Shown: positions 1-22,560 of the stretch, piece after piece
How the letters are laid out: each line of letters starts with the position of its first letter
How positions within the stretch are numbered: the stretch's first letter is position 1
Assembly (NCBI GenBank): GCA_964016885.1
Contig: OZ024741.1
Coordinates: 16,678,001 to 16,742,000 of the forward strand
Direction of reading: 5' to 3'
DNA length: 64,000 nucleotides
Origin: Eledone cirrhosa
Taxonomy: Eukaryota
Position numbers and translations under genes: made by a program
Notes under the pieces: generated by a model
The model's database searches: none
Seen by the model: only the letters and a program-made list of their open reading frames with translations
Told to the model about the DNA's origin: nothing

Positions 1-946
1 ATACTTCCCTCTATTACCCGTACCACAAACCTAACGAGTCCCTTAAATATATTAATGTTAATTCAAACCACCCCCAAAACATCACTGATAACCTAGTAAA
101 AAGCGTCTCTATTAGAATATCTGGCCTCTCCGCGAACAAAGATATTTTTAACGCATCTGCCTCCTACTACAATGACGCCCTCGCCCGTAGCGGATTTAAA
201 GAAAAGATAACATACCTAGAAACCACCGCAAGATTGCAGAGGAGGAATAGACATAGGCAGATTAGCTGGTACAACCCTCCCTTCAATAGAGAGGTCTCTA
301 CTCCGATAGCTAGGATTTTCTTCACTTTGCTGAAATTACACTTCCCCATACAACATAGGTACCACACCATCTTTAATAAGAACACAATAAGACTCTCCTA
401 CTCCACCACACCTAACCTAGCTAGGAATATAGCCAACCACAATTCTAAAAAAATAAATAAGCCAACCACCTCCGAACCCAATCCCCGGACTGGGGCTCTG
501 TGTAATTGCCTAAATAAGGAAGCATGCCCACTTGAAAACAAATGCCTCACAAATGATATCGTATAAAATGCGATGTCATCTCAGGCACCGATGATTGCAA
601 AAAAACTTACATCGGCATGACCTCCAACAACTTTAAGACCCGTTGGTATGCCCATACCCACTCCTTCAGAAGACCGGACAAATCAAACCAGACAACACTC
701 ACCTCCTATGTTTGGGACCTCAAAAGGAACTCCACCTCCTTCACGCTTAAATGGAAAATACTCCAGAAAGCGCGTTCTTACAACGGAGGACACAAGGGCT
801 GCGACCTTTGTATTTCAGAGAGCTACGAAATTTTATTCGCCAAGGGCCCGCTACTGAACAAACTCTCTGAACACTGCCCGAACTGCATGCACAAGAACTT
901 TGCAACTTTCAAACACTTTAAGCCAGTGTTAAAGCCCGATGGCTAA
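1..946 (+). pseudogene. Naiad-like PLE family 1, unit 1: 3' part of RT-thumb/GIY-YIG ORF (5' end outside window), 1-nt frameshift at ~565
   Basis: Near-identical to 8541-9486 (offset 8540). Motifs WYNPPF and CNCLNKEACPLENKC. Restoring one base in gtata[t]aaatgc gives VYKC...KTYIGMT (GIY-YIG), then CDLC and CMH. Confidence 0.9.
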
Positions 947-1089
947 AAACGACCTCCTCCTATTGGCCCCTATACCTCCTTCCCACCCTACCCCCACCCC
1001 TCCTCAACCTGAAATACGGCCACTATGGTTATGTGAGTACCTCTTACCTATCTACATTTTCTGCCTGTAGAGGTGTTTTTATGTGCCTG

Positions 1090-2125
1090 CGTATATGCGT
1101 ATATTTATTGAGTACTTATTTATTTGTATATATTTGTGTGTATGTGTGTATATGTATGTGTATGTATATGTATGTGTATGTATGTGTATGTGTGCACATG
1201 TGTATATGGGTATGTGTGTGTATATGTATATATATATATATATATATATATATATATATGTATATATATATATGTGTGTATGTGTATATATGTATGTGTG
1301 TATATGTATATATATATATATATATGTGTGTATATATATGTATATATATATATGTGTGTATGTATGCGTATGTATGTATGTGTATATATATATATATATG
1401 TATATGTGTATATGTGTGTATATGTGTATATATGTATATGTGTGTGTGTGTATATGTGTGTATATATATGTGTGTATATGTATATATTTATATATATGTG
1501 TGTGTGTATATATATGTGTGTATATATGTATGTGTGTATGTATGTGTATATATATATGTATATGTATGTGTATATATATATATATATATATATTTATATG
1601 TATGTGTATATATATGTATATATATATGTATATATATATATACATGTATATATATATATACATGTATATATGTGTGTATATGTATATATGTGTATATATG
1701 TATATATATATATATACATGTATATATATATATACATGTATATATGTGTGTATATGTATATATGTGTATATATGTATATATATATATATATATATATATA
1801 TATATATATATGTATATGTGTATGTGTGTATGTATATGTGTGTGTGTATATATATATATATATATATGTATGTATGTATATATGTGTGTGTGTATATATA
1901 TATATATATAGAGAGAGATGTGTGTGTGTATGTGTGTGTGTGTGTATGTGTGTGTGTGTGTGTGTGTGTGTATATATATATATATATATGTATGTGTATA
2001 TGTATGTGTATGTATGTATTTATATATGTATGTGTGTGAGTGTGTGTATGTGTGTGTGTATATATATATATATATATATATATATATATATATATATATT
2101 TGTATATGTATATATATGTATATAC
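1090..2125. repeat. Compound (TA)n/(TG)n microsatellite within the PLE 3' UTR
   Basis: Direct reading; GT-rich on + strand. Confidence 0.95.
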
Positions 2126-2129
2126 ATAT

Positions 2130-21104: not shown

Positions 21105-21535
21105 TGTAGTAAGAGTTGCCTCCCCTGCCACGACAATCGAATCGCTGTTCTCTAGACAGGAAGTAGGTGGAGATGCTTCCCTTTGGGATTGACCAAACTC
21201 CCTAGTGGTCACTTCCGGTCAACAGAGATAAAAGGAGCGATTTACCGCGAAATCTCTCTCTCGCCTCCCGATTCCTGAAGTGGTAACATCTTGGACCATA
21301 GCTGGTGATTCTTTCTGGACGACCCTTTCGTTACCAGCACAATGCAGCTCACCAGCCTGAGATGAGAGCGCCAAGATATTTCTACCAACTTCAGAATGGT
21401 ATTATTGCCATCGGGTAACAACCCTTTACATTATACGCCTTTGACTTCTATGAAGTAAAACTTTATCACACACACACACCAGTACTCTTTGTCTTTTATA
21501 TTATGTTGCATGTGCACCAATATTTATTTCCTAAA
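21105..21535 (+). repeat. 3' LTR, preceded by polypurine-like tract ggtggggggta (~21093-21103)
   Basis: Differs from the 5' LTR by about four substitutions, a 7-bp indel and CA-run length (by eye). Confidence 0.95.
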
Positions 21536-22493
21536 TATATATGTGTGTGTATGTATGACCTCACTCTCAAGAGCGTGAAATTAATAAACATTTGTTTGTT
21601 CTGCCCCTCTGTTTTGTTCCCGTTCAATTTTTCCTTATATATGTGTATATGTGTGTGTGTGTATATATATATATATGTGTGTATGTATATGTATGTATAT
21701 ATATATATTTATATAAAGAATTAAAAAGAACAGAAAGATGCAGTAAAAGAGATTTATTCGGTTCTTACGTACGTTTCAATAGACATCTATTTGCCTAGAT
21801 CTCGCTACATCTATAATATTATATATTTAGTAGAGCATTCGATATCCAATGCACAATCGATCCCATATCATCAGAGATTATATTTATATATATATATATA
21901 TATATACATATATATGTGTGTATGTATGAGTGTGTATGTATATGTGTATATGTATATATATATATATAAATATATTTATATGTGTGTATATGTGTATGTG
22001 TTTATGGGTGCGCGCGAGTGTGTGAGTGAGTGTGTTTTGTGAATGTGTCTGTTGATTTTTGGCATATAGTTGAATAGTTTAAGAGAAATTTGAAGATAAT
22101 TGTGAGATATGCACTCAATATTTTGAATTTGTCTACAGAATTCTCTAAACCTTTGTCACTTAGTAGAACCTTAATGAATTTAGCTTTTAAAGAAGCTCCC
22201 TTTCCTTTAAATCTATCTACCATGACTGACCCCCCACTGATCTTATAGACACCTGTTAGCTTAAGAGAAACTTAATAATAAGGAGTGGCATGCCATCCTG
22301 AACCTGTTTATAGAATTCTGTCTGCCTTTGTTACTCTAAAAACAAAAATAAATAAAAATAAACTATAGCTTTGTAGAATTAGCTTTTAATGAATTCCCTT
22401 TTCTATCAACCAATGACCTACACCCATCCCACTCCCCACCCTCTCCTACCACTTGTAGAGACCTATAAATACCATACTTACTTTTTGATACCC

Positions 22494-22544
22494 AGATTCC
22501 TGATGATTTCTAAAGAATGAAACAGTTCTAGTCCTGTAGAATCT
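22494..22544 (+). ncRNA. Minimal type I hammerhead ribozyme (second copy, 3' pseudo-LTR)
   Basis: Identical to 7162-7212. Confidence 0.85.
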
Positions 22545-22560
22545 CATCTATATTAAAACT

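What the first reader, a model, noticed from the sequence alone, without database searches (positions are those of the whole stretch)
1..22560. Tandem Naiad-like PLE pair whose own 3' UTR microsatellite was invaded independently in each unit
Seen: unit 1 (to 7228) runs directly into unit 2. Both have the same compound TA/TG tract between the ORF stop and the hammerhead pseudo-LTR. Unit 1 took RTE-A1; unit 2 took RTE-B1, a Gypsy element and a ~165-bp piece at 21715-21880. Neptune 1 and 2 also carry 3' UTR microsatellites. Inference: PLEs seed new TA landing pads as they move, creating a positive feedback between microsatellite and TE accumulation.
Basis: partly seen in the sequence, partly recalled or inferred. 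Interest (0 to 1): 0.7.

Follow-up and report, generated by a model that had tools for sequence, protein, structure and literature searches.

The report
Retroelement carries its own landing pad
A Penelope-type jumping gene in this animal genome carries a 1-2.5 kb TA/TG microsatellite inside its own tail, and that tail has collected about twenty times more later insertions per base than the rest of the element, so it likely seeds new insertion hot spots as it moves, although such tails make up only a minority of the genome's microsatellites.

Summary
The anatomy is real. The element is a Hydra-clade PLE (C-terminal endonuclease, hammerhead motif), not a Naiad.

The TA/TG tract belongs to the family. 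It follows the ORF in 37 of 37 dispersed copies, reaches the hammerhead end in 34, tracks ORF haplotypes and appears in 5'-inverted arms. It is a hot spot: 31 insertions in 62.7 kb of tract against 1 in 40.4 kb of unique sequence.

Two fixed islands in the tract resemble ends of other hammerhead elements, likely captured and spread. Four more PLE families here carry tracts of the same TG-on-sense polarity.

Corrections: the tandem is likely a recent 8.5-kb DNA duplication, because a third unit upstream holds the same RTE-A insertion. PLE-linked tracts were about 17% of compound and 5% of all TA/TG/CA tract bases in 710 kb sampled (a lower bound). Feedback is shown locally, not genome-wide.

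TE-borne microsatellites are published for snakes and for shrimp Penelope. This scan noted a similar nest elsewhere in this genome (e1-10319723). No RNA test was possible.

The parts
1..946 (+). 3' part of PLE ORF 1 (RT end, CxCX5C linker, GIY-YIG endonuclease), frameshifted near 564; it begins about 1.2 kb upstream of the window
947..1120 (+). Unique start of the 3' UTR, unit 1
   Evidence: 2 differences from unit 2 in 1-1128
1121..2130 (+). Internal TA/TG tract, unit 1, left part
2131..6320 (+). RTE-A non-LTR retrotransposon (APE endonuclease + RT, GAT tail) inserted in a TA run; the same insertion lies in the upstream pseudo-LTR
6321..6697 (+). Internal tract, unit 1, right part, with the fixed 76-bp island (about 6384-6459)
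6698..7228 (+). Unique 3' end of unit 1 with type I hammerhead motif (7162-7212); serves as pseudo-LTR for ORF 2
7229..7299 (+). 69-71 bp segment that begins the unit and is also the 3' 'tail' of 15 of 28 dispersed ends
7343..9486 (+). PLE ORF 2, Hydra-clade motifs; 1-bp deletion near 9104 shared only with ORF 1; an unbroken copy elsewhere (L253) reads 714 aa
9487..9660 (+). Unique start of the 3' UTR, unit 2
9661..10071 (+). Internal TA/TG tract, unit 2, first part
10072..14252 (+). RTE-B non-LTR retrotransposon inserted in a TA run
14261..14299 (-). Fixed ~40-bp island shared by a subfamily; reads as an antisense piece with a CTGATGA core, 86-87% like the end of another repeat
14300..15404 (+). 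Internal TA/TG tract, unit 2, second part
15405..21535 (+). Gypsy LTR retrotransposon (LTRs 15405-15832 and 21105-21535, 4 substitutions; coding region broken), TATA on both sides
21561..21636 (+). Fixed 76-bp island, 84% like the 3' terminus of another hammerhead-like family
21716..21880 (-). 165-bp member of a very young dispersed family (20 of the best hits 100% identical over the full length, this copy included; often in inverted pairs) with a hammerhead-like core, antisense
21881..22029 (+). Last part of the internal tract, unit 2
22030..22560 (+). Unique 3' end of unit 2 with type I hammerhead motif (22494-22544)
22561..23409 (.). TA-dominated tract after the element's end; likely the target site, not part of the element

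Best explanation
This is a Hydra-clade Penelope-like retrotransposon whose 3' UTR holds a 0.7-2.5 kb TA/TG tract between the ORF and the hammerhead end; the tract is likely copied through RNA with each jump, and it has taken up about twenty times more later insertions per base than the element's unique sequence. Shown: family-wide tract, inheritance with the ORF haplotype, presence in 5'-inverted arms, insertion excess, locus-specific insertions here. Inferred: the element inserts into (TA)n; each new copy, even a short 5'-truncated one, lays down fresh TA runs; TA-seeking elements (RTE, other PLEs, small hammerhead elements, here also a Gypsy) land in them; slippage reshapes the tract; an insertion into an active master can be trimmed and carried on as a fixed island. 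The tandem likely arose from one ordinary pLTR-ORF-UTR insertion. RTE-A entered the pLTR, RTE-B, Gypsy and the 165-bp piece entered the UTR, and a recent unequal crossover in the homologous tracts duplicated 8.5 kb. The loop is real locally but explains a minority of the genome's TA/TG tracts.
For: Tract after the ORF in 37 of 37 dispersed copies; an intact hammerhead end within 10 kb in 34 of 37. A tract abuts the end in 28 of 28 end-anchored copies, with (TA)n after the end or tail. Tract landmarks follow one ORF SNP: landmark A 0 of 20 vs 11 of 18 (p=3e-5), landmark B 14 of 20 vs 2 of 18 (p=3e-4). Reversed, CA-rich tracts lie in 5'-inverted arms in 7 of 8 loci I picked for having an upstream end; in about 12 of 28 end-anchored copies the inversion junction lies in or at the tract (by eye). 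Insertions: 31 in 62.7 kb of tract (20 of 34 copies) vs 1 in 40.4 kb unique, p=3e-6. Duplication: ORF1/ORF2 4 substitutions in 2432 bp, RTE-A twins 5 in about 4184 bp, against 69 in about 4100 to the third RTE-A; the frameshift is in 2 of 36 copies; the RTE-A junction in 2 of 40 scored.
Against: No transcript was seen, so passage through RNA is inferred. An ORF insertion larger than about 5 kb would look like a 5' truncation (7 such simple breaks in 20 loci), so the 20-fold figure may be too high. The copies are the best 40 of about 1700-2200 candidates, the closest relatives of the window copy. The hammerhead fold is not the minimum-energy fold (z 0.19; -2.6 vs -7.6 kcal/mol) and Rfam found no hammerhead. 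PLE-linked tracts were only about 17% of compound and 5% of all tract bases, two thirds of that from one locus. A false duplication in the assembly is not excluded.
Confidence: 0.82

Rival explanations
1. The tract is not part of the element: each copy lands in an existing genomic microsatellite, and the ORF part and hammerhead part merely flank it.
For: The element does end in (TA)n (28 of 28). TA/TG/CA tracts cover 8.5% of 710 kb sampled. Tract lengths vary 3.5-fold.
Against: Shared ordered landmarks and islands follow the ORF haplotype. Lone TG vs CA units inside TA runs are 345:23 in the internal tract, 8:10 in the 3' flanks and 207:257 in the genome sample. The tract recurs reversed in inverted arms.
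Confidence: 0.03
2. Strong form of the reader's idea: PLE-borne tracts are the main source of this genome's TA/TG microsatellites, a runaway feedback.
For: Five PLE families of two clades carry tracts. Inserted elements include PLE ORFs in 7 of 31 events. Five of 27 sampled endonuclease loci have a sense tract and none an antisense one. Truncated copies of unknown families would be missed.
Against: Only about 3.1 of 18.7 kb compound and 60.7 kb total tract bases could be tied to a PLE (summed by hand). TA-dominated tracts (5.3% of bases) outweigh compound ones (2.6%). Most sampled PLE loci lack a tract.
Confidence: 0.15
3. The tandem was made in one retrotransposition event (long partial tandem or rolling-circle template), not by later DNA duplication.
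For: Partial tandems are the normal PLE structure (PMC8557442 section 6), and the junction at 7228/7229 is the normal one (L253).
Against: RTE-A is in units 0 and 1 but not unit 2, and the RTE-A junction is nowhere else among 40 scored. The twins differ as little as the two ORFs. The Gypsy LTRs differ more (4 in about 424 bp), so Gypsy is probably older than the duplication.
Confidence: 0.1
4. The TG-on-sense polarity of the tracts is written at the RNA level: (UA)n hairpins in the PLE transcript are A-to-I edited and copied back as TG, so the tract is an edited TA target.
For: TG on the sense strand in 5 of 5 families; 345:23 lone TG:CA units; A>G exceeds T>C in tracts of two young families (13:6 and 14:6). 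That ADAR edits U-A duplexes is recalled.
Against: G>A is as common as A>G in the same tracts (22 vs 13; 17 vs 14), which fits slippage between TA and TG units. No A>G excess in unique parts of any of four alignments. One published consensus just before the Hydra file has (CA)n on the ORF strand.
Confidence: 0.15

Closest known systems
Hydra clade of C-terminal-endonuclease PLEs, incl. Hydra-1_Obim (Craig et al. 2021, PMC8557442; abstract, sections 6 and 11, passages, supplement parts 52-53 and search hits seen)
   Same: Single ORF of about 714 aa, DKT, RW[K/R], CxCX5C linker, no CCHH, CxxC and CxH near the end, hammerhead motif in the pLTR, (TA)n target, tail, partial tandems and 5' inversions.
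   Different: The six published Hydra consensus sequences I read have short 3' UTRs without a long TA/TG tract; Hydra-1_Obim is 2507 bp. This family is about 5 kb with a kilobase tract. Its tail is 69-71 bp, not 30-40.
Naiad PLEs (PMC8557442)
   Same: (TA)n insertion bias, pLTR tandems.
   Different: Naiads have the endonuclease at the N-terminus, DKA, a CxC domain and no canonical hammerhead. None of this fits.
TE-carried SSRs in penaeid shrimp, incl. young Penelope copies (Yuan et al. 2021, PMC7878876; passages seen)
   Same: Penelope copies over 98% identical with SSRs that moved along with the element, then lengthened.
   Different: In the passages seen there is no placement between ORF and hammerhead, no count of later insertions into the tract, no captured islands and no strand polarity.
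Microsatellite seeding by CR1-L3 and Rex LINEs in snakes (Pasquesi et al. 2018, PMC6050309; passages seen)
   Same: A retrotransposon spreads a microsatellite genome-wide.
   Different: There the repeat is at the 3' tail and is AATAG. Here it is internal and contains the motif that the element and its neighbours insert into.
[quoted passage not shown]
   Same: CUGAUGA and GAAA core, 6-bp stem I, short stem II with an extra 5' base, near-palindromic stem III suited to dimers.
   Different: Activity of this motif is untested.

Membership tests
Naiad | N-terminal GIY-YIG endonuclease | tested here: not met
   GIY-YIG at residues 588-605 of 714
Naiad | No canonical hammerhead | tested here: not met
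   Type I motif at 7162 and 22494; one exact variant makes up 57 of 85 pattern matches in 65 loci
Naiad | DKA in place of DKG | tested here: not met
   DKT at residue 116
Hydra clade | Single ORF, C-terminal GIY-YIG | tested here: met
   L253 reads 714 aa without a stop; the window copies are frameshifted
Hydra clade | DKT motif | tested here: met
   109 of 120 listed homologs also have DKT
Hydra clade | RWK motif near the N-terminus | tested here: inconclusive
   RWR at residue 38; homologs RWK 94 of 120, RW[KR] 118 of 120
Hydra clade | CxCX5C linker; CCHH absent; CxxC and CxH beside catalytic E and N | tested here: met
   CxCX5C at 567, CxxC at 667, CxH at 695; only one Cys inside the GIY-YIG core, read by eye
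Hydra clade | Canonical hammerhead motif | tested here: met
   Core and three stems present by pattern; not the minimum-energy fold; cleavage not tested
Hydra clade | Insertion into (TA)n | tested here: met
   28 of 28 ends followed by TA repeats
Hydra clade | Generally shorter than 3 kb | tested here: not met
   About 5 kb, owing to the tract (median about 1.8 kb); the paper says 'generally', so this marks a variant
Hydra clade | Groups with Hydra RTs in a tree | not tested
   No tree with named references; RT motifs match Hydra-1_Obim by eye
Microsatellite-seeding retrotransposon | Repeat moves with the element | tested here: met
Microsatellite-seeding retrotransposon | Repeat present in the element's RNA | not testable with these tools
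   No usable RNA run; inferred from inverted arms and truncation points
Microsatellite-seeding retrotransposon | Accounts for much of the genome's load of that repeat | tested here: inconclusive
   About 17% of compound and 5% of all tract bases in 710 kb; a lower bound dominated by one locus

The most novel reading that the evidence does not exclude
Unrelated PLE families of two clades (Hydra and Neptune-like) have each acquired a kilobase copy of their own TA target inside the 3' UTR. The tract is turned into TG on the sense strand by an RNA-level process, such as A-to-I editing of (UA)n hairpins written back by reverse transcription. It works as a mobile capture zone that picks up the ends of other ribozyme elements and spreads them, and it is a main engine of this genome's microsatellite and TE load.
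Probability: 0.13. Interest if true: 0.78.

Novelty: new variant of a known kind. Interest (0 to 1): 0.42.

Why it matters
It gives an age-matched measure of a TE-microsatellite loop inside one element: the part that carries the target motif gathers about twenty times more insertions than the rest. It shows how PLE tails can grow by capturing pieces of other elements. In practice, consensus building that stops at the microsatellite will split such families into an ORF part and a separate 'hammerhead repeat'. The shared TG-on-sense polarity in five families is unexplained and can be tested with matched RNA and DNA.

Tried and rejected
Rfam: only low-complexity miRNA-type hits on the tracts, all below gathering scores; no hammerhead family matched. 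Folding: the hammerhead is not the MFE.

RNA: no RNA holder listed. Contigs of runs X1, X2, X5 and X6 are short and skip repeats, so they say nothing on transcripts or on the duplication.

A strict hammerhead pattern found none within 1.5 kb downstream in Neptune 1, Neptune 2 or the L129 family. Only the L129 family shows a long-stem hammerhead-like motif by eye, further down.

Editing test: inconclusive to negative. The idea that RTE-A or Gypsy travel as PLE cargo was rejected: the junctions are locus-specific among 40 scored each. The upstream RTE-B at about -18.5 kb is a separate insertion (97.6%, no island behind it). Random-sample hits to the 76-bp island at 86-92% were not counted as this family, because a separate family has that end.

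Literature: eight searches listed no paper describing a kilobase TA/TG tract between PLE ORF and hammerhead as an insertion hot spot. The library lacks most subscription papers, and Repbase and Dfam were not seen. PMC13282606 (part 1 of 3 read), PMC3124438 and 10.64898/2026.07.22.740005 (passages) added nothing on this point. Supplements of the bioRxiv paper and of the shrimp and snake papers were not seen and may bear on novelty.

Full report
Observation. The window is G000:C2:16678001-16742000 in a 3.0-Gb genome. Two head-to-tail PLE units each have an ORF, about 175 bp of unique UTR, a compound TA/TG tract and a 531-bp end. Unit 1 holds RTE-A (2131-6320). Unit 2 holds RTE-B (10072-14252), a Gypsy element (15405-21535) and a 165-bp piece (21716-21880). 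By tract landmarks the four sites differ; RTE-A and Gypsy are about 40 bp apart in the homologous segment.

Clade. Naiads have an N-terminal endonuclease, DKA and no canonical hammerhead (PMC8557442, abstract and section 6). Section 11 defines Hydra by a C-terminal endonuclease, RWK, DKT, a CxCX5C linker, no CCHH, CxxC and CxH, a hammerhead and (TA)n targets. An unbroken copy (L253) reads 714 aa with RWR, DKT, CxCX5C, a C-terminal GIY-YIG, CxxC and CxH. Of 120 listed homologs, 109 have DKT and 105 CxCX5C. A type I hammerhead pattern lies at 7162 and 22494. It is not the minimum-energy fold; its near-palindromic stem III would suit a dimer (PMC4209133 passages). I built no tree with named references.

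Is the tract part of the family? A search with the ORF end gave 1685 candidates, 40 scored at 98-100%. I fetched 10 kb behind 37 of the 38 copies outside the window; the 38th lies inside one of these stretches. All 37 go straight into a TG-rich tract. 34 reach an intact hammerhead end, one reaches only its last 131 bp, and two reach none within 10 kb. Without insertions the tract is 723-2522 bp, median about 1.8 kb. A search from the other side gave 2198 candidates. I fetched 28 of 40 and left out 3 local copies and 9 that overlapped other loci. All 28 have a tract abutting the end (27 TG-polarised, one mixed) and TA repeats after it, 15 after a 69-71 bp tail.

Inheritance. Landmarks inside the tract follow one ORF SNP: landmark A 0 of 20 vs 11 of 18, landmark B 14 of 20 vs 2 of 18, with the two window units counted once. 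I chose that SNP after seeing the table, so the p-values are optimistic. Reversed CA-rich tracts lie in the 5'-inverted arms in 7 of 8 loci picked for having an upstream end; the eighth is a direct pLTR. Many short copies begin inside the tract. Inversions and truncations form during PLE insertion, so the tract was likely in the template. No RNA run could show this directly.

Landing pad. In 34 complete tracts I counted 31 copy-specific insertions of 100 bp or more; 39 islands were merged by hand into 31 events, and 20 of 34 copies were hit, in 62.7 kb. The unique parts gave 1 insertion in 40.4 kb: 22.5 kb of ORF in 20 loci with 7 kb upstream, plus 34 ends. That is 0.49 vs 0.025 per kb, p=3e-6. 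Large ORF insertions could pass as truncations (7 simple breaks), one event (L069) may be an original complex insertion, and these are the closest copies only. Seven events carry PLE ORF sequence and three matched the RTE protein. The 165-bp piece belongs to a very young family with a hammerhead-like core, often in inverted pairs. Two fixed islands look like older catches: the 76-bp island is 84% like the 3' end of another hammerhead-like family, and the 40-bp island is 86-87% like an antisense end with a CTGATGA core. They likely entered an active master and were spread.

The tandem. Upstream of the window lies a third unit, a pseudo-LTR from about -7940 to -1312. It carries the same RTE-A at the same base; 6580 bp match 1969-8540 at 99.2%. 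The RTE-A twins differ by 5 substitutions in about 4184 bp and the two ORF regions by 4 in 2432; a third RTE-A differs by 69. Both ORFs share a 1-bp deletion seen in 2 of 36 copies. The RTE-A junction occurs in 2 of 40 scored hits, and the other 38 show the empty site; the Gypsy junction occurs in 1 of 40. The simplest history is one pLTR-ORF-UTR insertion, separate invasions of the two tracts, then a recent 8.5-kb duplication, likely by unequal crossover. A 414-bp insertion only in unit 0 would be later still. An assembly artefact is not excluded.

Other families. Neptune 1 (24 of 25 loci), Neptune 2 (25 of 25) and a second Hydra-like family found at L129 (20 of 20) have a TG-on-sense tract after the ORF. 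Unique sequence follows the tract in the examples printed (2, 3 and 1 loci), so it is internal. The PLE fragment at 63419 does the same in its one copy. Neptune 1's 3' end lies at 58707-59323 (90%), so an antisense PLE and Neptune 2 are nested in its tract. Six published Hydra consensus sequences have short UTRs.

How much of the genome? In 71 stretches at round coordinates that I chose (710 kb), TA-dominated tracts cover 5.3%, compound tracts 2.6% and pure TG 0.6%. Five of 27 PLE endonuclease loci have a sense tract within 700 bp and none an antisense one; two loci had less room than that. Tracts tied to a PLE sum by hand to about 3.1 kb: 17% of compound and 5% of all tract bases, two thirds from L129. 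This is a lower bound. It supports real but partial seeding.

Polarity. Lone TG vs CA units inside TA runs are 345:23 in the tract, 8:10 in the flanks and 207:257 in the genome sample. My test did not support it: G>A matched or exceeded A>G in tracts, and unique parts showed no A>G excess. Slippage from a polarised founder suffices within a family. Five of five families in one direction stays unexplained.

Known and new. TE-borne microsatellites are published for snake LINEs (PMC6050309 passages) and for young shrimp Penelope copies whose SSRs moved with them (PMC7878876 passages). PLE preference for (TA)n is known. Eight searches listed no paper on a kilobase internal tract between ORF and hammerhead acting as a measured hot spot. 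Verdict: a new variant of a known kind, well supported, of moderate interest.

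Noticed in passing
G000:C2:16670060-16676688 (window -7940 to -1312; L061): A third unit (pseudo-LTR) with the same RTE-A insertion as unit 1 and a private 414-bp insertion.
   Followed up: yes
window 47700-59326: Neptune 1's UTR tract is split by an antisense PLE (50700-53165) and by Neptune 2 with its palindromic end (53252-58506); Neptune 1's 3' end resumes near 58520.
   Followed up: partly
L129 (G000:C1:50000001-50006500); L231-L250: A very young second Hydra-like family (best 40 hits about 100% identical, 1329 candidates) with a 4.3-kb UTR, about 2 kb of TA/TG tract and a hammerhead-like motif with a very long stem II.
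   Followed up: partly
window 41292-41499: Inverted pair of very short ends of the same family (hammerhead, end and tail) between TA tracts.
   Followed up: no
window 2131-2195 and 25590-25700: RTE-A carries its own (CT)n/(AC)n/(TA)n stretch at its 5' end, so it may seed microsatellites too.
   Followed up: partly
L079, L081, L089 (inside the PLE tract): Tandem arrays of a ~466-bp unit with a CTGA-N-GA...GAAA core inserted in the tract; retrozyme-like. L087 has a similar ~850-bp repeat.
   Followed up: no
window 63419-64000 and L271:1-1400: A related Hydra-like fragment (78% DNA identity) with a TA/TG tract, itself invaded by a palindromic element and an RTE-A copy.
   Followed up: partly
window 33066-37490: Helitron Rep/PIF1 ORFs preceded by 69-bp repeats.
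   Followed up: no
window 59326-62544: A 3.2-kb TA-dominated tract after Neptune 1's end; target tracts after PLE and RTE ends are often very long.
   Followed up: no
window 26360-29461: RTE-A copy with an uninterrupted 1033-aa frame including a PHD-like finger after the RT.
   Followed up: no
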